DNA of 20,000 bases, taken from positions 45,975 through 65,974 of the IMG/VR virus record IMGVR_UViG_3300037991_001521. One strand, written 5' to 3'. Made by a program: the position numbers and the translations under genes. The notes under the pieces were generated by a model. That model ran no database searches. It was given only the letters and a program-made list of their open reading frames with translations, and was not told the origin of the DNA. Within the stretch, counting starts at the first letter, position 1. Each line of letters begins with the position of its first letter. The DNA is from an uncultured virus (IMG/VR IMGVR_UViG_3300037991_001521). Its lineage: Duplodnaviria > Heunggongvirae > Uroviricota > Caudoviricetes > Autographiviridae. Of this stretch, positions 4,901 through 17,816 are shown piece by piece.

Positions 4901-5917
4901 ATCGTGGACTCCGTAGATTGGCTCTGACAGGGCAAGCTCAACATCACCGCCAGCCTTTTCAACAGCTTCGTCTAGATTCCATTTGCCAAGATCGTCTAAG
5001 GCTTGTGAGCGTTTAGCAGCCGAAAAATTAACTGATTCTTCTGGATCAAGAGCTTGTTCTGCATTGTATTTAGCAGCATACTGACCAGCTTTTTCGTTTT
5101 TAGGAATGTAGTTTGTAGTCAGTCCCCTTCTACCGTTAAGAAGTTTTGCTGCACCGACTAGCAAATCAGTACCTACACCCAGATAAACACCTTCAGTAAC
5201 GTTCTTGGCACGTTTCATGTCAGCACCATCAGACGCTAGAGTTGCTAGGTCATCAGGAATCCAACCATAAAATCTAGGCCAGGTTTGTTTAAGAACACCA
5301 GTAAGGTTGTCGTCAGTTTGATTGATCTCAACTGTGTAGTCAACAAAGGCACCAGTACCAGCACTGAATGCCATGCCTCCTACTTTTTTGACCATAGGGT
5401 CTACAAGAAATTGAAGCTTAGACGCTTTAGACGCTTTAGACGCAATAGAAGCAGCTCTGCCTGCCAGAGCAGCAGTCCCTAGTCCACTCAATCCAATAGT
5501 AGGAATGATGATAGAAGACATTTCCCGTACTGTTTGTGTGATTTCACTTTCAAACTCAGGAACTTTTTCAATCTCTACACCAGGGACTAGGTTGAGAAGG
5601 TCAGCACCAAAATCAAGAACACCGACAGGTGCTGCCGCAGCGAGTTCACCTACAAATTCAATTGCAGATTGATCGTCCTCGTCTTCATCTTCGTCGTCTT
5701 TTTCTTTTTCCTCTTCTTTGAGAGTAGTTTCTACTTGTTCAACTTTTTCTTCTGGTGTCAAAACTTGTGGTTGTGCAGGTTCAGATGTCGCCGTAGCTTC
5801 ATCAGTATCTTCAGTTTCTTCCTGCTTTCTGAGTTCTTCTAAAGCTTTCTGTTGCTCGATGAACTCCGTATCACGGCTAGGTAACCCTTCCGTAAAATTG
5901 TTTAGAAATTCATTCAT
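1913..5917 (-). CDS. gp16: Internal virion (ejection) protein, T7 gp16-like, ~1334 aa
   Basis: Largest ORF, helical/charged with hydrophobic segments, located between gp15-like and tail fibre. Start moved from 6010 to ATG at 5917 (MNEFLNNF), which overlaps the gp15 stop by 8 nt. Confidence 0.8.
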   Translation of the reverse strand: MNEFLNNFTEGLPSRDTEFIEQQKALEELRKQEETEDTDEATATSEPAQPQVLTPEEKVEQVETTLKEEEKEKDDEDEDEDDQSAIEFVGELAAAAPVGVLDFGADLLNLVPGVEIEKVPEFESEITQTVREMSSIIIPTIGLSGLGTAALAGRAASIASKASKASKLQFLVDPMVKKVGGMAFSAGTGAFVDYTVEINQTDDNLTGVLKQTWPRFYGWIPDDLATLASDGADMKRAKNVTEGVYLGVGTDLLVGAAKLLNGRRGLTTNYIPKNEKAGQYAAKYNAEQALDPEESVNFSAAKRSQALDDLGKWNLDEAVEKAGGDVELALSEPIYGVHDLYGAQEVVQRSLDGDVNLAAVDAWQVATNKGGSVNGRVGSMITEPFLKDGLKLDKDMTIMLKGIGSQLKDTKMDVKFPNGDYATAADIAKVGDEMATEYMQLPWEQVKKLFMEDVKASGIVDRRAGVEGLSEVGMEAARKMIKQYTTDLMNLDDVKAETYLATSLAGQVSDIAQGVRMTEGTPAIDNASNLIIDRIEYLMAMRGRSAYIRGRALNLTNMWNRLTASGSKANQAAYAKRIDRILKEESNETLRAIDRIRLDAKFTADTLREIRTEKPEFFAPLIMAYEFTDGKVNTMVSLNKFLKKSTGIFRNSLVNDDPGTQSVILNAFWSNVYNSTLSAFATPIKAGFSNMAGLVEKPLGALIGSQLLGDTANMRRALYQYNLNFEVLQDSLKYMGDVFKRSATELNVADLQRENITMKNQEQIEILEAIAVAKDAEGDSAPLAAVERIKAMNDLANHPWLRFGNRAMQALDGFTQNMIMHAEIRGRAFDKVTNNGAKEFDGKLAESMYAEIKKEMFDEDGLIKDEIVRHTAGELAMSLDNELTNSVSGFISRFPVLKPFVLFTKTPINDLILAKSYSPHNLFMKEYRDFRMKPNELPMQQIDDILRSRGMKEMEVNKMSVEEKYMRYGEIRADLYGRTAIGTLTVMGALGLFVTDRITGNGLADKQKQALRRETGWKPRSIRLPGGNWISYDNLGPVSNWFAAVADVADNMDSLTPNDMAEQFRKLGFILAASITDKSFMAGLEPFMDVARGDVGALSRWGGQFAVAANVPGSSLMAEMGRLMDPGLKEVESTILDMARNRLPLFRSQLPQKYDWIDGDRIGYPDKAGNTYEGFMTRVWNNYMPWKISGKISDEKKFLQMVEYDALPRLRTNGRGVELTPDQRSEITNIMGQRGFFKEGIKRVMKTTTGKEFRKKYMKAVNMGFKPDINDVGQVHRLLDAELRLAMRMASALSSDKDVVARKMAINQTVEAYLEAENFEAAERFLKMMEEYSY
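5418..5443. repeat. In-frame 9-nt tandem repeat (ttagacgct x ~3) encoding ASKASKASK in gp16
   Basis: Directly visible: ttagacgct ttagacgct ttagacgc. Confidence 0.85.
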
Positions 5918-12850: not shown

Positions 12851-12875
12851 AAAAAAAGGGACCCCGAAGGATCCC
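12851..12875 (-). terminator. Intrinsic terminator after the capsid gene (T-phi position)
   Basis: Minus strand reads GGGATCC-TTCG-GGGTCCC-TTTTTTT: 7-bp stem, C(UUCG)G tetraloop and U7 tract, between gp10 and gp11. Confidence 0.92.
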
Positions 12876-12895
12876 TGTATACGTTGATAAAAAAA

Positions 12896-14041
12896 TCAGA
12901 ATGCAGCGTTACCAGTAGAACCGACGGCTGCACCAGCAATCAGTTCAACACAGCAAGCAGGGTTCAGATAGTCAGCGCCCATGGCGAGACGACCCAGAAG
13001 CACGTCACCTTGGTAGACCACGGAGACGTCACCGCTGGTGACCTGAACTTGAGGACCGATGGCTTCAACACAACCAGCACCTTCGCGCTGGAAGATCAAA
13101 CCACAGGAGTTAGCGAATTCGGTTTCTTCACCGTACTCGTTGTTGATGCCAGTGACATCGTTAGCAGCATCCTCAACACTTTCACCGACAAAGGAGCCAG
13201 TGTTACCAGGAGAGGTAGTGCCAGGGTTGGTAGCAGAACCAGTACCATACTTGGTACCGTAGTTGCTGAAGAACGGAATGTTCATGGACTTGAAGATCTT
13301 GATACCAGCAATCTCCACAATGCCCTGACCAGACTGCAGAGCGGCACCCTGCTCGTCACGGTTGATCAGTCCGTTGTTGCCAACTTCCTGGATCAAGGCA
13401 TAGTATTGTCGTGGGTTGAGGACCCCGACTCTGCCCTCGCTGCTGACCCCTTTTTCATCCATCGCAGCAGCGGCGTCGAAGAAAGCGGTGGTCAGCTTTT
13501 GAGCATCGTAAGCATCAGAAGCGTTAGCAGTAGCGCCAACACGAATCTGGGTGCCGCCGGGCTCAACAAAGCTAGACTTGGTAATCGGAGATGCAGCACG
13601 TGCACCACGGGTGATAGCACGGAAGATCAGACGATCATATTTCTGGGCAAGAGCATAGCCAATCTTACGGCTGATCTCAGAGCGCAGATCGTAGTGAGAC
13701 AGAGTCTCGTCAAGATCATACACGAAAGCCGAGCTGATGAGCAGGTCGTCAACCGTGATGGTCTTTTCAGCCACCGGGGGCGCACCGTCGGAGTTACCGA
13801 GGATAGCGTTTCCGGGGGTGTGGAATTCAGCAGTAGTGCGACCCGTGTAGATGAACTGCATAGATTTGCCGTTCTTCAGGGTACGCTTCATGACCAGGTC
13901 ACGAGCGATAGCATTATACTGGAATCCTTTGAACATCTCTCCAGAGAAGAGCTTCAAATAAAGAGCGCGGGCGTCTCCCGCGGAGTTAGATTGACCAGCC
14001 CTAGTTAGGGAAGTGGTCAGATCAGAAGACTGATGTGCCAT
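12896..14041 (-). CDS. gp10: Major capsid protein
   Basis: 381 aa; ALYLKLFSGEMFKGF, RTLKNGKSMQFIYTGR, EKTITVDDLLISSAFVYDLDE, YDLRSEISRKIGYALA, GRLAMGADYLNP match T7-like cyanophage capsids. Confidence 0.96.
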   Translation of the reverse strand: MAHQSSDLTTSLTRAGQSNSAGDARALYLKLFSGEMFKGFQYNAIARDLVMKRTLKNGKSMQFIYTGRTTAEFHTPGNAILGNSDGAPPVAEKTITVDDLLISSAFVYDLDETLSHYDLRSEISRKIGYALAQKYDRLIFRAITRGARAASPITKSSFVEPGGTQIRVGATANASDAYDAQKLTTAFFDAAAAMDEKGVSSEGRVGVLNPRQYYALIQEVGNNGLINRDEQGAALQSGQGIVEIAGIKIFKSMNIPFFSNYGTKYGTGSATNPGTTSPGNTGSFVGESVEDAANDVTGINNEYGEETEFANSCGLIFQREGAGCVEAIGPQVQVTSGDVSVVYQGDVLLGRLAMGADYLNPACCVELIAGAAVGSTGNAAF

Positions 14042-14073
14042 TTGTTAGGTACGAAATAAGTGTATAAGCAGTC

Positions 14074-14198
14074 TCCAAACGTTTGGAAAGGCAATGTGCC
14101 AAAATTTTTTGTGGTCTATCCCACCGTCATGACGGCGAAGGGTATCCGCGTACGGGCCAACGCCAATGCAAGGGAGGTCCGACTCTGAGGTGCCTCCC
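14074..14198 (-). promoter_or_regulatory. Structured 5' leader of the capsid gene (candidate cis-regulatory RNA or operator array)
   Basis: ~170-nt non-coding gap containing GGGAGG-N15-CCTCCC, GGCG...CCG-TACG-CGG...CGCC, perfect palindromes CCGTCATGACGG (14124-14135) and TCCAAACGTTTGGA (14074-14087), and GTGG-GATAGA-CCAC. Confidence 0.5.
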
Positions 14199-14211
14199 AA
14201 GCTGTTAAGAT

Positions 14212-14370
14212 TTAGTAGCCACGCATTTTTTTACGGGCTTCATTGATTGCGTTTTTCCTGCGTTGCAGCTTTGCAGCAGGTGAAACATTCTTTGGATTTT
14301 CTAGATGCTTTTTAACTTTGGTTTTGGCTTTACGCCCAACACCATCAAGAAAAGATTTGACAAGATCCAT
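14212..14370 (-). CDS. Small basic hypothetical protein (52 aa, MDLVKSFLDG...KKMRGY)
   Basis: ATG at 14370 lies 1 nt after the upstream TGA (14372-14374); K/R-rich; fills the gap on the coding strand. Confidence 0.6.
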   Translation of the reverse strand: MDLVKSFLDGVGRKAKTKVKKHLENPKNVSPAAKLQRRKNAINEARKKMRGY

Positions 14371-14371
14371 A

Positions 14372-14524
14372 TCAGAGGAGCCCTTTAAGACACTTTTTTT
14401 GTTTGCGACATTGTGGCTTTTTGTTACCACAGTGACCACAGCGATTGAAAACAATACTGTTATCTACAGACACAGGGTCCATCTTTGTAACAGCAGCTTT
14501 GACAACTTTAGATTGATGTGGCAT
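14372..14524 (-). CDS. Small Cys-rich basic protein (50 aa, MPHQSKVVKAAVTKMDP...RCGHCGNKKPQCRKQKKCLKGLL)
   Basis: ATG at 14524 follows an A-rich unstructured stretch; four Cys (CxxC...C...C); abuts the next ORF. Confidence 0.6.
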   Translation of the reverse strand: MPHQSKVVKAAVTKMDPVSVDNSIVFNRCGHCGNKKPQCRKQKKCLKGLL

Positions 14525-14546
14525 AATGTATTTTATTGTGTGTAGG

Positions 14547-14610
14547 CGTGGGCGCTTTCCGAACACCCACTCCTTAAACCGTTCCTTCGGGCTTTACAAT
14601 TGTGGAAAGC
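14547..14610 (-). ncRNA. Candidate structured RNA element upstream of the MPHQS peptide
   Basis: GCTTTCCACAATTGTAAAGC-CCGAAGGAACGG-TTTAAGGA-GTGGGTG-TTCGGAAAG-CGCCCAC: three possible hairpins, plus complementarity GCTTTCC/GGAAAGC and CCGAA/TTCGG. Confidence 0.4.
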
Positions 14611-14619
14611 TCTTTGTAT

Positions 14620-14733
14620 TCAGTTTTTAATTGTGCGCTTGACAATGTAAGCAACGCCCCGATACTTTAAGACAATCTCTTTTTGCTTGGCTTGCTGTTC
14701 ACGGATGCGCTGACGTACTTCAACTTGAGACAT
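14620..14733 (-). CDS. DUF4278-like 'downstream peptide' (37 aa, MSQVEVRQRIREQQAKQKEIVLKYRGVAYIVKRTIKN)
   Basis: Manual translation (below the ORF-track size cutoff); contains LKYRGVAY, the YRG motif of peptides downstream of Downstream-peptide RNAs; sits just 3' of the riboswitch. Confidence 0.85.
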   Translation of the reverse strand: MSQVEVRQRIREQQAKQKEIVLKYRGVAYIVKRTIKN

Positions 14734-14748
14734 GATTAGTTCAGAAAT

Positions 14749-14805
14749 AACCTACCCCCCGTTCCATGAGTAGGTTGCCTGCGTCCCGATAACGGGATGA
14801 ACGTA
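14749..14805 (-). ncRNA. Glutamine-II riboswitch (Downstream-peptide RNA motif)
   Basis: Minus strand: CGTTCA-TCCCG-TTAT-CGGGA-CGCAGGC-AACCTACTC-ATGGAACG-GGGGGTAGGTT. P1 CGTTC/GAACG, P2 TCCCG/CGGGA, 9-bp pseudoknot AACCTACTC/GGGTAGGTT, followed by a YRG peptide. Confidence 0.85.
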
Positions 14806-14819
14806 CGGCCTGAGTCTAA

Positions 14820-15164
14820 TTAAAAATCGTAAGTGAAGCCAACTTTTGTGCCATAGTTGTTGTCACTGTCAGCAGTCATAAACGACACTTCGCCATATGC
14901 AGACACGCTGTCTGAAAGGCTGACAGAACCTCCGACTTTGCCAGAGAATTCAAGTTCAGTGTCACCACCGTCAGGAGCGACGATGGCAGGACCTGCTTGG
15001 ACGAACCAGTTGTCCTTTTTGTAACCGACATGGTTGTCAATTACAGTGCCGCCATAGTTTGATCCAGAGAAACCAGAGTTGGCTTCCACGTTCAAATAGG
15101 GCTGGGCAGAGACTGGAGCTGCAACAGCAATGAGTGCTGCGGGGAGGAAAGCAGTGAGTTTCAT
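14820..15164 (-). CDS. Secreted small outer-membrane beta-barrel-like protein (114 aa)
   Basis: Sec signal peptide MKLTAFLPAALIAVAAPVSA, alternating amphipathic beta-strands (YLNVEAN, WFVQAGP, LEFSGKVGGSV, VSAYGEVSF), C-terminal YGTKVGFTYDF ending in Phe like a BamA beta-signal. Confidence 0.75.
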   Translation of the reverse strand: MKLTAFLPAALIAVAAPVSAQPYLNVEANSGFSGSNYGGTVIDNHVGYKKDNWFVQAGPAIVAPDGGDTELEFSGKVGGSVSLSDSVSAYGEVSFMTADSDNNYGTKVGFTYDF

Positions 15165-15173
15165 GTCAGTGTG

Positions 15174-15323
15174 TTAGCGTTTTTTGGCGGTTTTGGCAGC
15201 ACGCTTGAAGTTGGCGGCAGTCGGTGCTCCTTTGGAACCCGGCTTCCTCATCTTCTCGTTACTGCCTGCGGCGATACGACGCCGCTTAGCATGGATGTTA
15301 GCGTAGAGTCCAGGTTTTGCCAT
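15174..15323 (-). CDS. Small basic phage protein (49 aa, MAKPGLYANIHAKRRRIAAGSNEKMRKPGSKGAPTAANFKRAAKTAKKR)
   Basis: Manual translation; ATG overlaps the upstream TGA (TGATG); GLYANIHAKR...GAPTAANF resembles small hypothetical proteins I recall from marine phages. Confidence 0.8.
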   Translation of the reverse strand: MAKPGLYANIHAKRRRIAAGSNEKMRKPGSKGAPTAANFKRAAKTAKKR

Positions 15324-15490
15324 CACTTCATCCTCCGTTTACGCAATGCTGCAAAATCAGCACCGTCAATTTTCATTTTGTTACCAGCCATCCCAGCAAT
15401 CTTCTGTTGCTTAGACGACAATTTTTTGTTTTTGTTTTTATTTTTAGGCCGACCCACTTTGGAGCCGTATGTTCCAGGTCCGTAAGGCAT
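15323..15490 (-). CDS. Small basic phage protein (55 aa, MPYGPGTYGSKVGRPKNKNKNKKLSSKQQKIAGMAGNKMKIDGADFAALRKRRMK)
   Basis: Manual translation; starts 2 nt after the scaffold stop and its stop overlaps the next ATG. Confidence 0.75.
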   Translation of the reverse strand: MPYGPGTYGSKVGRPKNKNKNKKLSSKQQKIAGMAGNKMKIDGADFAALRKRRMK

Positions 15491-15492
15491 GG

Positions 15493-16245
15493 TTAAAAAT
15501 CAATGTCAGATAGTTCAAGCTTACGCATAATGTCGTTCCTGTATGCAGCGTCACGCTCGTAACGAGGATCGTTCATAGCATTGACAAGTTCAGCTTGACT
15601 GCGGAAACCTTCAGCGGAATCCGAAGCAGCCCGTCCTTGAATCAGCTCGCCTTCAGTACCCATTGAATCTTGGTACCGAAGGGCAAGTGCCTGAACAGCA
15701 AAGAAAGCAGCTTGAGTGTTACCACTCTCCATAATAGAATCATACATATCAATCTCTTGTTCGGAAAAGTTGTCCTTTGCCCAACCAAGTAGATTTGTGT
15801 ATTCACCATCACCACCAACCATATCTTTGAGCTGCGTTGCAGTCTCTTCGGTCATAGGCTCAAACGTATTTGCTTCCATCTGACGACGGTAATCAAGGTG
15901 CATCTGTGCTAGGTCAGTAGGATCGGCGTTGCTCAACTCTTCAAGAATGTCATCACTAAAATTATCATTTATTTCACCTTCCCAAAGACGGTCAAACAAA
16001 TCACTATCAGTTTCTTCAAGCTGTTGATCCTCAACTTGTTCTTCAGGCTCATCACCATCAGCGCCAAGTTTCTTTTGCAGTTCAAGGTATGCAGACTCAA
16101 GTTCTTGTGCGTTCTTATATTTGCCAGCTAGCATCTGTTCATGCTGAGCTTCTAGCTCTTCGCCTACTTGCAAAGAATCTTGTTCTTCTGCATTAAGTTC
16201 ACCCGGACCATTTTCTTCCGGGATCATAGACATTACTTCAGCCAT
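15493..16245 (-). CDS. gp9: Capsid assembly scaffolding protein
   Basis: 250 aa, very acidic; LAGKYKNAQELESAYLELQKKLG, VGGDGEY..LLGWAKDN, FRSQAELVNAMNDPRYERDAAYR; follows portal. Confidence 0.93.
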   Translation of the reverse strand: MAEVMSMIPEENGPGELNAEEQDSLQVGEELEAQHEQMLAGKYKNAQELESAYLELQKKLGADGDEPEEQVEDQQLEETDSDLFDRLWEGEINDNFSDDILEELSNADPTDLAQMHLDYRRQMEANTFEPMTEETATQLKDMVGGDGEYTNLLGWAKDNFSEQEIDMYDSIMESGNTQAAFFAVQALALRYQDSMGTEGELIQGRAASDSAEGFRSQAELVNAMNDPRYERDAAYRNDIMRKLELSDIDF

Positions 16246-16247
16246 AG

Positions 16248-17816
16248 TTAGGTGGTTTCTTGTTCGGGTGGTTGTTCTGCCATTTCAGGATTTTTAGAAG
16301 GATCCATCATCGGCGTTTTCATTGCATCAACGCTAAGTTTCTGCTGTTCAAGTTGCATCTGTTGTTGCATCTGTTGTTGGCGTTCACCCTGCACCTCTTC
16401 CATAGAACGTACAAGATTTAGTACGTCAATACCTTGAGATGCAGCAAGACGTTTGATGACTTCGTCAGTGTTAATAAACTGTGCAATGGACTCAGGTCCT
16501 AGAGTCTGTGCCAGTGTTGTCAGGAATGAACCAAGGCTTTCACGATCTTGGCCGCGGCCTAGTGCGTTGACACCTGCAACAATAGTAGGCTTGACAATGT
16601 TCTTAGGAATGCGTGGGATCTCACCCTTACGCTGTGCTTCACTAAGTTTTCGATTGAGATAAGGAACAAGAAAGTCAACAGTCAGCAAACTAAACAAGCC
16701 ACCGAGTTGTTGTTCCAGTTCCATTTGTGTCATACGTACCTCCTCTGCAGTTGTACGTTCTGATTGCCTGACATTGAGAATCAGAAACGCTTCGCTAAGG
16801 CGACGTTCTAATACTTGTGTCATTTCAAATGCAGTTCGGAAGTCTGCAGTCTTACCAACTTGCACAACACCCACGTCATCAGGACGACCCTGAATAATTG
16901 CACCGTTGCCTGCAGCTGCAAGTGTACTGGGTTTGGTTGTACTAGAAGGGCTGACAGTAAACACAACCTTAGCGGCTGCTGCACTGCCTTCAACCAAAGC
17001 TTGGCTAAGACCTTCTAAAGACTTAAGGTCACCAATAAATTGACCAACCCTGCCACGTCCATAGCTTTCACCATCGACTGTGTTGAATCGCAGGGGAATC
17101 CAAGGGGTGTTGTTAATAGGTGACTTGCCTTGCGAACCTTTAATAATTTTGTCAGACACTTCTTGGTGCCAAACAAACCTGTTGTTGTCACGCTTGACAT
17201 GTGTATATACATCAATGTCATCAGCGTAGGAGCCTTCTTCACTCACACTTTTCGTGTCAGCAAAGAAATCTTTGGGCAGTTGATCCCGAAGGATTCGTTT
17301 TGAAATACGTTCTTTTGTAATTATTTCAACTACTTGACCGTTGCCGTCCCGATCCACAACGTAGCGATTCAAAGGGTAGACTTTTAATCCATTCTTGCTC
17401 ATAAAAATCATAGCGTTTCCTGCGACAACCAAATGCAACAAAGCTTGATGCACCGCAACACGGTCATCAGACGCAGCAATTGATTCTAGAATGATACGTT
17501 CGATTTTTGCAAAAGACAAATCAAGTTCGGATTTGATTTCTGGTCCGAAATCTTGACCCAACTGACTTTCGTCAAGTTGCAATTTAAAGAAACTGGTTTG
17601 CACAGGGAGTAGCGCCAGCATCAACTTTGATGCCAGCGTCACACAGCCCTTCGCCCCAACGCTTTGGTATGGTGTCTTCAATTGTTTCATGCCCATGGTG
17701 TATTCTTCATGACCACGAATCAAGTATGGAAGTGTCAGTTCTGATGCTTGACGTGCTTCTTCAAGAAACTGGGAACGGTCGCTAGTTAAATAATCATATC
17801 GTGTACGTGCAGACAT
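16248..17816 (-). CDS. gp8: Head-to-tail connector (portal)
   Basis: 522 aa; PYQSVGAKGCVTLASKLMLALLP, PWIPLRFNTVDGESYGRGRV, RQSERTTAEEVR are gp8-type motifs. Confidence 0.96.
   Translation of the reverse strand: MSARTRYDYLTSDRSQFLEEARQASELTLPYLIRGHEEYTMGMKQLKTPYQSVGAKGCVTLASKLMLALLPVQTSFFKLQLDESQLGQDFGPEIKSELDLSFAKIERIILESIAASDDRVAVHQALLHLVVAGNAMIFMSKNGLKVYPLNRYVVDRDGNGQVVEIITKERISKRILRDQLPKDFFADTKSVSEEGSYADDIDVYTHVKRDNNRFVWHQEVSDKIIKGSQGKSPINNTPWIPLRFNTVDGESYGRGRVGQFIGDLKSLEGLSQALVEGSAAAAKVVFTVSPSSTTKPSTLAAAGNGAIIQGRPDDVGVVQVGKTADFRTAFEMTQVLERRLSEAFLILNVRQSERTTAEEVRMTQMELEQQLGGLFSLLTVDFLVPYLNRKLSEAQRKGEIPRIPKNIVKPTIVAGVNALGRGQDRESLGSFLTTLAQTLGPESIAQFINTDEVIKRLAASQGIDVLNLVRSMEEVQGERQQQMQQQMQLEQQKLSVDAMKTPMMDPSKNPEMAEQPPEQETT

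What the first reader, a model, noticed from the sequence alone, without database searches (positions are those of the whole stretch)
14042..15490. Scaffold-capsid island: micro-ORFs interleaved with three structured leaders, without psbA/hli
Seen: between gp9 and gp10 lie six short genes (55, 49, 114, 37, 50, 52 aa) and three non-coding gaps, each rich in stems; no psbA or hli. Known: P-SSP7 carries hli/psbA at this locus. Inference: an alternative host-interaction cassette (outer-membrane protein, N-sensing peptide, RNA-controlled micro-proteins), possibly a serial RNA-regulated module feeding capsid expression. Three of the six ORFs are absent from the ORF track and two are given with different starts.
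Basis: partly seen in the sequence, partly recalled or inferred. Interest (0 to 1): 0.75.

Follow-up and report, generated by a model that had tools for sequence, protein, structure and literature searches.

The report
Phage antisense RNA to host psbA
Some marine viruses that lack their own photosystem-repair gene psbA carry a short RNA element complementary to the start of the host's psbA message, which suggests they control the host's gene with RNA instead of bringing their own copy.

Summary
The six small genes, three gaps and absence of psbA/hli are real. The interval is the known variable island of T7-like cyanophages. Its proteins are not an alternative to psbA: three are as common beside psbA, and the full set occurs in 2 of 69 intervals. 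Gap 1 is a known glutamine-II riboswitch.

Gap 2 (14544-14612) is the main result. On the phage-sense strand, 21 nt are the exact complement of the Synechococcus psbA leader (-40 to -20), and a hairpin loop matches -12 to -6. The element occurs in 21 of 28 psbA-less and 0 of 41 psbA-carrying intervals. It recurs with different flanks in Syn5, S-TIP28 and a third lineage, and its variants follow host alleles. Best reading: a phage trans-antisense RNA on host psbA mRNA (pairing about 0.8). Protection is slightly favoured over silencing. Expression is not shown.

Gap 3 is a conserved, covarying capsid-leader RNA, absent from Rfam, with two perfect palindromes; the downstream one varies freely in sequence, which points to RNA dimerisation. 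Neither element turned up in the literature searched, but Fremin 2023's alignments were unreadable.

The parts
15493..16245 (-). gp9 scaffold gene (upstream boundary)
   Evidence: PF05396, phrog_1052
15323..15490 (-). 55-aa basic protein (29% K+R), no family; island gene also found beside psbA
   Evidence: coding pattern in 48 homologues; 51 of 69 intervals by tblastn
15174..15323 (-). 49-aa basic protein, phrog_16028 (unknown function)
   Evidence: E 6e-30; 1736 synonymous vs 494 non-synonymous codon changes; 61 of 69 intervals
14820..15164 (-). 114-aa cyanophage outer-membrane-protein-like beta barrel
   Evidence: PF24653 E 1e-36, phrog_417; 51 of 69 intervals
14750..14806 (-). Glutamine-II (Downstream-peptide) riboswitch
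   Evidence: RF01704 59.5 bits vs gathering 33; 17 of 20 related loci; P-SSP7 already in the 2010 alignment
14620..14733 (-). 37-aa DUF4278/IF17-like peptide under the riboswitch
   Evidence: PF14105 18.3 bits, below the 25.3 cut-off; coding pattern; family association in PMC6212724 passages
14544..14612 (-). Candidate trans-antisense RNA to the host psbA leader: weak 5' hairpin, seed, 3' hairpin
14571..14591 (-). 21-nt seed, exact complement of Synechococcus psbA 5' UTR positions -40 to -20 (PhotoRC-I motif)
14555..14561 (-). 7-nt conserved loop of the 3' hairpin, complementary to host leader -12 to -6
   Evidence: exact in 25 of 32 distinct elements, variant in 5, absent in 2
14372..14524 (-). 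50-aa basic protein with a conserved Cys/His cluster (possible metal site, inferred)
   Evidence: coding pattern in 42 homologues; 28 of 69 intervals, 11 of them with psbA; no Pfam or PHROG hit
14212..14370 (-). 52-aa basic protein, rare
   Evidence: 2 of 69 intervals; 9 synonymous vs 3 non-synonymous codon changes against L097
14172..14198 (-). Capsid leader, first slot: hairpin with a conserved loop; relatives carry a T-arm hairpin or a tRNA-Gly here instead
   Evidence: 98 of this type, 65 T-loop type, 6 other, of 169; stem paired in 94-98 of 98 at six positions; tRNA-Gly in NATL1A-7 and L171
14111..14164 (-). Capsid leader core: P1/P2 with conserved asymmetric loop and tetraloop, palindrome 1 (14124-14135), hairpin P4 (14111-14124)
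14074..14087 (-). Palindrome 2 of the capsid leader: perfectly self-complementary, sequence free among relatives
   Evidence: 135 of 154 with zero-nt loop, 11 of 16 possible centres, first mismatch G.U 102 vs A.C 0
12896..14041 (-). gp10 major capsid gene (downstream boundary)
   Evidence: PF21703; 92% to MedDCM-OCT-S28-C3, 91% to S-RIP2

Best explanation
The interval is the known variable island II of T7-like cyanophages, a mosaic of exchangeable parts. The part specific to psbA-less phages is an RNA element in the phage-sense transcript. Shown: its 21-nt seed is complementary to the host psbA 5' UTR from -40 to -20, and its 3' hairpin loop to -12 to -6. Inferred: it is made during infection, within or processed from the scaffold-capsid transcript, and pairs in trans with host psbA mRNA (probability about 0.8). 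Inferred, with less certainty: the duplex shields the leader from endonucleolytic decay and keeps host D1 synthesis going, as PsbA2R/3R do in Synechocystis, so that the phage can do without its own psbA. Separately, the capsid leader is a conserved structured RNA whose two perfect palindromes most likely pair between two copies of the RNA (about 0.55). Its tRNA or T-arm slot probably marks a processing site (inferred).
For: (1) Target. A 19-nt pattern from the seed gave 20 hits in 185,579 genomes, 17 of them Synechococcus/Parasynechococcus. psbA starts on the opposite strand 19 nt away in 9 of these 17; the other 8 share the same flanks but gave no psbA hit. (2) Exclusion. 21 of 28 psbA-less and 0 of 41 psbA-carrying intervals carry it, and 0 of 43 hli-carrying ones. 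Each label needs at least 4 changes on a capsid tree, and sister pairs switch together: L038/L082 and L092/L083. For host WH8109, Syn5 has the element and no psbA; S-TIP37 has psbA and no element in its interval. (3) Recurrence. The seed sits in the same gap and orientation in Syn5, S-TIP28, L367, L371/372, L376, L384 and L492 with different hairpins, and in L373/L386 without them. (4) Allele tracking. 13 of 32 distinct elements pair 21/21 with one of three host alleles. Four fit best a host allele that differs at three positions, in both clade-B-type and clade-A-type flanks. (5) Energy. Binding is -20 to -28 kcal/mol, against -8.8 +/- 2.8 for 100 shuffles. (6) Strand. The 3' hairpin covaries (3 of 10 pairs change on both sides; 0/500 shuffles reach the count of such cells), and the sense strand folds better in 19 of 23. 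(7) Sign. The duplex ends 19 nt before the AUG, the same offset as the PsbA2R/3R start sites (PMC6596454 passages). Duplexes mask RNase E sites during P-SSP7 infection (PMC3113571 passages). Phage psbA leaders lack the target (best -24 vs -43 kcal/mol), so self-targeting does not explain the exclusion, whereas redundancy would.
Against: No expression, strand or end data. The loop match at -12 to -6 covers a mostly unpaired ribosome-landing region, which fits silencing better. A perfect 21-bp duplex could also draw RNase III (established knowledge). The exclusion is confounded by relatedness, by block inheritance of the island and by host: several psbA-carrying phages infect hosts with a different leader. 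The element is not required in psbA-less phages: 7 of 28 intervals lack it, and P60, S-CBP42 and S-CBP2 have neither. No antisense to the other two host allele groups was found in a podovirus gap among 93 hits. The 5' hairpin shows no covariation and is broken in 3 of 17. The tree is the quick version, on 54 of 69 rows.
Confidence: 0.47

Rival explanations
1. Same trans pairing, opposite sign. The RNA silences host psbA: the loop blocks -12 to -6 and the duplex triggers cleavage, which frees ribosomes and amino acids for capsid synthesis in phages that do not sustain photosystem II.
For: Loop match at the ribosome-landing region, conserved across clades and not collinear with the seed. The element lies just upstream of the capsid gene. 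hli is absent as well. T7-like cyanophages also carry nblA, which harms photosynthesis (PMC12695635 passages).
Against: It does not explain why none of 41 psbA-carrying phages has the element, since their own leaders are not targeted. L373 and L386 keep the seed without the loop. The seed stops short of the ribosome footprint.
Confidence: 0.33
2. The opposite strand is the functional one. A + strand sigma-70-type promoter (14499-14527) makes a mimic of the psbA leader that titrates a host factor.
For: 11/12 promoter match with extended -10 just upstream; 7 sites found vs 2.6 +/- 1.8 expected. Rfam PhotoRC-I hit on the + strand, 25.2 bits, below the cut-off of 45.
Against: The + strand folds no better than shuffles (68/200). 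The mimic does not keep the host's second hairpin (by inspection). The promoter overlaps the start of the 50-aa ORF and is not apparent, by eye, in the 5 loci where the element abuts the capsid leader. The distinct transitions seen are A to G or C to U on the sense strand, which keep pairing.
Confidence: 0.07
3. A neutral relic of an inverted psbA-leader fragment that hitchhikes on a psbA-less island haplotype and at most acts as a cis hairpin.
For: The 3' hairpin has the same outline as the complement of the host's first hairpin. The island is exchanged in blocks.
Against: The seed is kept while stems, flanks and capsids (about 42-50% identity between lineages) diverge. It follows host alleles in two clades. 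The loop match is out of order for an inversion.
Confidence: 0.07
4. One reading: a fixed alternative cassette whose three leaders act in series on the small genes and the capsid.
For: All parts lie on one strand in a fixed order, and the riboswitch could affect downstream read-through.
Against: 23 combinations in 69 intervals; full set in 2; the proteins co-occur with psbA. The capsid leader is general to these phages, with or without psbA.
Confidence: 0.05
5. For gap 3 only: the palindromes act within one molecule or on DNA (hairpins, cruciform, promoter, protein site), not between RNA copies.
For: Each palindrome can fold as a hairpin with a 4-nt loop. S-CBP1 has an imperfect palindrome 1. 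The predicted dimer gain is modest and follows from the construction: -13.6 vs -8.8 kcal/mol with both centres broken, n=38.
Against: The innermost positions cannot pair within one strand, yet they stay complementary in all four possible ways. G.U 102 vs A.C 0 points to RNA on the sense strand. The core occurs once per module, not as a repeated promoter. The isolated core folds with palindrome 1 left single-stranded.
Confidence: 0.35

Closest known systems
PsbA2R/PsbA3R antisense RNAs of Synechocystis PCC 6803 (PMC6596454, passages read)
   Same: Pair with the psbA 5' UTR, starting 19 nt before the start codon; protect against RNase E.
   Different: Host-encoded in cis with their own promoter. 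The element here is phage-encoded and would act in trans, has flanking hairpins and a second site at -12 to -6, and its sign is untested.
PhotoRC-I RNA motif, RF01716 (PMC2864571: passages and supplement alignment read)
   Same: The seed is the reverse complement of its centre.
   Different: PhotoRC-I is a cis motif on host psbA mRNA. Here the complement lies on the phage-sense strand with no psbA nearby, scoring 25 bits against a cut-off of 45.
CfrI of myovirus S-PM2 (passages in PMC12197685 and PMC9602691)
   Same: Cyanophage antisense RNA linked to psbA.
   Different: Cis to the phage's own psbA 3' end, not directed at the host leader.
Phage trans-acting sRNAs on host mRNAs: PreS, 24B_1, misc_4 (review PMC12197685, passages)
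   Same: Phage RNA that regulates a host mRNA by pairing.
   Different: Enterobacterial phages, mostly temperate (recalled). None of the passages read describes one that targets photosynthesis or alternates with an auxiliary metabolic gene.
Genomic island II of cyanopodoviruses (Labrie 2013, as cited in a PMC7885011 passage; original not read)
   Same: Same variable interval next to psbA; the same small genes are annotated in S-TIP37, S-SBP1 and S-RIP2.
   Different: This copy lacks psbA and hli.
Glutamine-II riboswitch with DUF4278/IF17-like peptide (PMC6212724, passages)
   Same: Full Rfam match and the same downstream peptide type.
   Different: No difference found. Its presence at this phage locus is already on record for P-SSP7.
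Dimerising RNAs with self-complementary sequences, such as retroviral dimer initiation sites and phi29 pRNA (recalled, no call); capsid-proximal candidates DNAVirus_231, 3706, 3823, 3864, 5397 (PMC10690425, table rows read)
   Same: Perfect palindromes of variable sequence; the Fremin candidates lie upstream of T7-type capsid genes in aquatic phages.
   Different: No sequence relationship was tested. The Fremin alignments could not be read, so overlap with the capsid leader is open.

Membership tests
Glutamine-II riboswitch (RF01704) | Covariance-model score above the gathering threshold | tested here: met
   59.5 vs 33 bits
Glutamine-II riboswitch (RF01704) | Upstream of a short DUF4278-type ORF | tested here: inconclusive
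   37-aa ORF 17 nt downstream; PF14105 18.3 bits, below the 25.3 cut-off
Glutamine-II riboswitch (RF01704) | Glutamine-dependent switching | not testable with these tools
   needs binding or reporter assay
PhotoRC-I (RF01716) | Score above the gathering threshold | tested here: not met
   25.2 vs 45 bits
PhotoRC-I (RF01716) | In the 5' UTR of psbA, on the sense strand | tested here: not met
   no psbA in the contig; match is opposite to phage gene direction
PsbA2R/3R-type cis antisense RNA | Complementary to the psbA 5' UTR, ending 19 nt before the AUG | tested here: met
   offset from PMC6596454
PsbA2R/3R-type cis antisense RNA | Encoded in cis, opposite its target | tested here: not met
   phage-encoded; target is on the host chromosome
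PsbA2R/3R-type cis antisense RNA | Stabilises psbA mRNA against RNase E | not testable with these tools
   needs decay or cleavage assays
Phage trans-encoded base-pairing sRNA | Conserved complementarity to a host mRNA at another locus | tested here: met
Phage trans-encoded base-pairing sRNA | Expressed as an RNA with defined ends during infection | tested here: inconclusive
   contigs of RNA libraries cover it but show no strand or ends
Any Rfam 15 family (capsid leader) | Match to a covariance model | tested here: not met
   none at E<=5 in the window; in 10 related loci at E<=1 only tRNA and glutamine-II hits
T7 phi10-type promoter and leader | Promoter sequence repeated in the genome; T7-like leader layout | tested here: not met
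   one close copy per module; the T7 leader has no palindrome of 8 nt or more
Cyanophage OMP (PF24653) | Pfam score above cut-off | tested here: met
   126 vs 27 bits

The most novel reading that the evidence does not exclude
T7-like cyanophages have two interchangeable ways to keep photosystem II repaired: carry psbA, or carry a roughly 70-nt antisense RNA that protects the host's psbA mRNA while other host messages decay. The RNA would be an RNA-only substitute for the best-known auxiliary metabolic gene, kept matched to the host allele. In the same operon, capsid mRNA leaders would pair with each other through two palindromes.
Probability: 0.4. Interest if true: 0.92.

Novelty: new variant of a known kind. 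Interest (0 to 1): 0.8.

Why it matters
Only 36% of complete T7-like cyanophage genomes carry psbA (PMC12695635 passage). How the others treat host D1 turnover is, to my knowledge, open. A phage RNA aimed at the host psbA leader gives a direct, testable answer of either sign. It is present in two cultured phages with named hosts, Syn5 and S-TIP28. It would mean that counts of auxiliary metabolic genes miss RNA-based control of photosynthesis. The seed also predicts which Synechococcus group a metagenomic phage infects. The capsid leader adds a widespread structured RNA with an unusual signature of pairing between molecules.

Tried and rejected
RNA libraries: 19 runs were listed, none holding half the sampled words. 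Four were laid (3 studies). Contigs cover the element (X5 record 11, X6 record 20, X8 record 27), but they show no strand, ends or level and may be DNA, so this is not counted as evidence.

Antisense to the two other host allele groups: 34 + 59 viral hits, none in a scaffold-capsid gap.

Capsid leader as a known ribozyme or Rfam family: no hit. The tRNA-adjacent look-alike L172 shares only the 3' motif and has no capsid gene after it. I saw no HDV-like pseudoknot by eye; that comparison is recalled and was not tested. Phage-promoter reading: not repeated in the genome. RNAalifold on the MAFFT alignment missed P1 because of register shifts, so motif-anchored counts were used; 8 of 158 cores could not be anchored.

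The dimer-energy columns were mis-indexed and were redone. The careful tree did not finish and the quick tree was used; 15 of 69 rows were left out (1 interrupted capsid gene, 6 with short read frames, 8 duplicates). The Fisher p of 4e-12 is inflated by relatedness and is not relied on. tblastn undercounts DUF4278-like peptides in psbA-carrying phages (3 of 41; clustering gave two families in 34 and 15 of 69 loci). The ESM Atlas gave only unnamed clusters for the 49-aa protein. Earlier scan findings: none. Paper search returned nothing of use.
Full report
Setting. The window is the structural region of a T7-like cyanophage, with genes on the - strand. Its capsid is 92% identical to MedDCM-OCT-S28-C3, 91% to S-RIP2 and 72% to P-SSP7. 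The 66-kb contig holds two related copies of the module and three N gaps, and is probably a chimeric assembly. The window's layout recurs in full in an independent contig, L097. No psbA or hli was found in the contig; the hli test is weak, as it missed the annotated hli of S-CBP42.

Observation. The six ORFs are present at the stated sizes. All show third-position-biased change without stops; the 52-aa ORF has only 1 homologue. The 114-aa protein is PF24653, the 49-aa protein phrog_16028, and the 37-aa peptide a sub-threshold DUF4278. Five of the six are 22-31% lysine plus arginine. Single-sequence folding beats shuffles clearly only for gap 2 (1/200); gap 1 gave 9/200 and gap 3 gave 25/200.

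The island. I fetched the best 80 of 598 capsid relatives and the best 80 of 90 scaffold relatives, plus six GenBank records. Of these, 76 span both genes, giving 69 distinct intervals, including the window and its second copy. This is island II of the cyanopodoviruses, as described in a passage of PMC7885011 that cites Labrie 2013 (original not read). The order of parts is largely fixed but the content is mosaic: 23 combinations, with the window's full set in 2 of 69. The 55-, 49- and 114-aa genes occur in 27, 35 and 35 of 41 psbA-carrying intervals and in 24, 26 and 16 of 28 psbA-less ones. The proteins are therefore ordinary island residents, not a replacement for psbA.

Gap 1 is known. It is a glutamine-II riboswitch (59.5 bits), found in 17 of 20 loci tested. 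The P-SSP7 copy is already in the 2010 alignment (PMC2864571 supplement). The link to DUF4278/IF17-like peptides is described in PMC6212724 (passages).

Gap 2 points at the host. Rfam gave a weak PhotoRC-I hit on the strand opposite to the phage genes. A 19-nt pattern from the phage-sense strand gave 20 hits in the genome collection, 17 of them Synechococcus or Parasynechococcus. In 9 of these 17, psbA begins on the opposite strand 19 nt away; the other 8 share the same flanks but gave no psbA hit. Window 14571-14591 is thus the exact complement of host psbA leader positions -40 to -20. Predicted binding of 23 distinct clade-B-type elements to their best host leader is -20 to -28 kcal/mol, against -8.8 +/- 2.8 for 100 shuffles. 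The 3' hairpin covaries (3 of 10 pairs change on both sides); the 5' hairpin does not. The sense strand folds better in 19 of 23. The loop of the 3' hairpin matches host -12 to -6, exactly in 25 of 32 elements, as a variant in 5, and is absent in 2. Only 57 of 16,384 possible 7-mers would match the leader. The order of seed and loop is not that of a simple inversion.

Distribution. A profile built from 21 podovirus hits out of 48 (the other 27 are unrelated) finds the element in 21 of 28 psbA-less and 0 of 41 psbA-carrying intervals, and in 0 of 43 with hli. On a quick capsid tree of 54 rows each label needs at least 4 changes, and sister pairs switch together. The seed recurs in the same gap and orientation in Syn5 and S-TIP28, between different hairpins with a similar loop. 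A further scan gave 8 of 23 hits in this context, among them two loci of a third lineage with the seed but no such hairpins. Complete genomes S28-C3, Syn5 and S-TIP28 have the seed and no psbA. P60, S-CBP42 and S-CBP2 have neither. Syn5 and S-TIP37 share host WH8109 and show opposite states (for S-TIP37 only the interval was examined). Caveats: relatedness, block inheritance, and hosts with other leaders among the psbA-carrying set. Scans for antisense to two other allele groups found none in context among 93 hits.

Allele tracking. The 2010 alignment shows host alleles of the leader (strain names for its accession numbers are recalled: CC9605 and WH8102 for the common type, CC9902 and BL107 for the three-change type). 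Of 32 distinct phage elements, 13 pair 21/21 with one of three alleles. Four fit the three-change allele best: three in clade-B-type flanks and one (L492) in clade-A-type flanks. Most remaining differences are G.U-compatible; a few are true mismatches. This is the strongest argument that pairing itself is under selection.

Mechanism. Shown: complementarity, conservation, allele match and exclusion with psbA. Inferred: expression and pairing in the cell (about 0.8). The sign is open. For protection (0.47): the duplex ends 19 nt before the AUG, as PsbA2R/3R do (PMC6596454 passages); duplexes mask RNase E sites during P-SSP7 infection (PMC3113571 passages); psbA leaders are RNase E targets (PMC8682795 passages); and redundancy explains the exclusion, whereas self-targeting does not. 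For silencing (0.33): the loop covers a mostly unpaired ribosome-landing region, hli is missing too, and the element lies next to the capsid gene. A decoy from the + strand promoter at 14499-14527 and a neutral relic each get about 0.07.

Gap 3 is a conserved capsid-leader RNA. Of these, 114 are followed by a capsid homologue, 4 are truncated copies and 2 are unrelated. In 150 of 158 distinct cores, P1 and P2 covary with G.U allowed, around a conserved asymmetric loop. The first slot holds the window's hairpin type in 98, a T-loop hairpin in 65 and something else in 6 of 169. NATL1A-7 and L171 have an intact tRNA-Gly there, which suggests a processing signal (inference). Perfect palindromes of 8 nt or more occur in 93 of 99 and 96 of 99 leaders, against 7% and 12% background. 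For the downstream one, 135 of 154 have a zero-nt loop, 11 of 16 possible centres are used, and the first mismatch is G.U in 102 and A.C in 0. Central bases cannot pair within one strand, so pairing between two RNA copies is the simplest reading (about 0.55). The isolated core folds with palindrome 1 single-stranded. Predicted dimer gain is modest and expected by construction. Related layouts or palindromes appear in Syn5, S-CBP1, S-CBP2, S-SRP01 and SS120-1, but not in T7. What dimers would do, such as tuning capsid translation, presenting a nuclease substrate or nucleating assembly, is untested.

What is in print. Full-text searches found no description of either element, and five motif strings gave 0 papers. 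The 2010 alignments lack the strings tried. Passages of PMC12197685, PMC9602691, PMC9004378 and PMC12254263 mention at most CfrI, PhotoRC-II and glutamine riboswitches in this connection. Limits: subscription papers are missing. In PMC10690425 (passages and table rows read) five aquatic candidates lie upstream of T7-type capsid genes; three supplements were too large, two gave no text and one was not searched, so the capsid leader may be among them.

Verdict. The island and the riboswitch are known, and the serial-cassette reading is not supported. The finding does contain a well-supported candidate for a phage trans-antisense RNA aimed at host psbA, alternating with phage psbA, and an uncatalogued palindromic capsid leader. 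Novelty: new variant of a known kind. Interest 0.8.

Noticed in passing
G000 contig 13661-17023 and 58870-62219: The contig carries two related copies of the structural module (77-88% DNA identity over the larger blocks) and three N gaps; probably two phage genotypes joined. Both copies have the antisense element and no psbA.
   Followed up: partly
window 14499-14527 (+): Near-consensus sigma-70-type promoter (11/12, extended -10) facing into the element, the DUF4278 gene and the riboswitch; it overlaps the start of the 50-aa ORF.
   Followed up: partly
L285:3306-3376, L171:758-830, L208:759-826: Intact and decayed tRNA-Gly(UCC) genes directly before the capsid-leader core; a series from tRNA to bare T-arm hairpin fills this slot.
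   Followed up: partly
psbA leaders of L015, L024, L079, L083, L118, L122, L130, L134, L143, L148 (about 90 nt before the start): A shared hairpin motif with covarying stem and conserved loop precedes phage psbA; no Rfam hit at gathering level in L083.
   Followed up: no
psbA leaders of L057, L060, L073, L111, L141: A T-loop hairpin followed by a second conserved motif precedes psbA, the same hairpin type as in the capsid leader's first slot.
   Followed up: no
L362:9375-9626, L363:9930-10072: Pelagiphage HTVC011P and HTVC019P capsid leaders show a stem with a similar asymmetric loop and an 8-nt A/T-rich palindrome; the family may extend beyond cyanophages.
   Followed up: no
L072 near 5000-5230: The capsid gene is interrupted shortly after its start by an insertion (match spans 1356 nt), possibly an intron.
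   Followed up: no
L172:574-760: In an unrelated 68-kb phage, a tRNA-Leu is followed by a structured stretch that shares the 3' motif of the capsid-leader core, with no capsid gene behind it.
   Followed up: partly
L084, L086, L289 and others, between core and capsid start: An extra 7-9-bp hairpin precedes the downstream palindrome in P-SSP7, P-GSP1, P-SSP2 and relatives; some leaders carry a third short palindrome.
   Followed up: no
window 12857-12876 (-): Intrinsic terminator-like hairpin right after the capsid gene.
   Followed up: no
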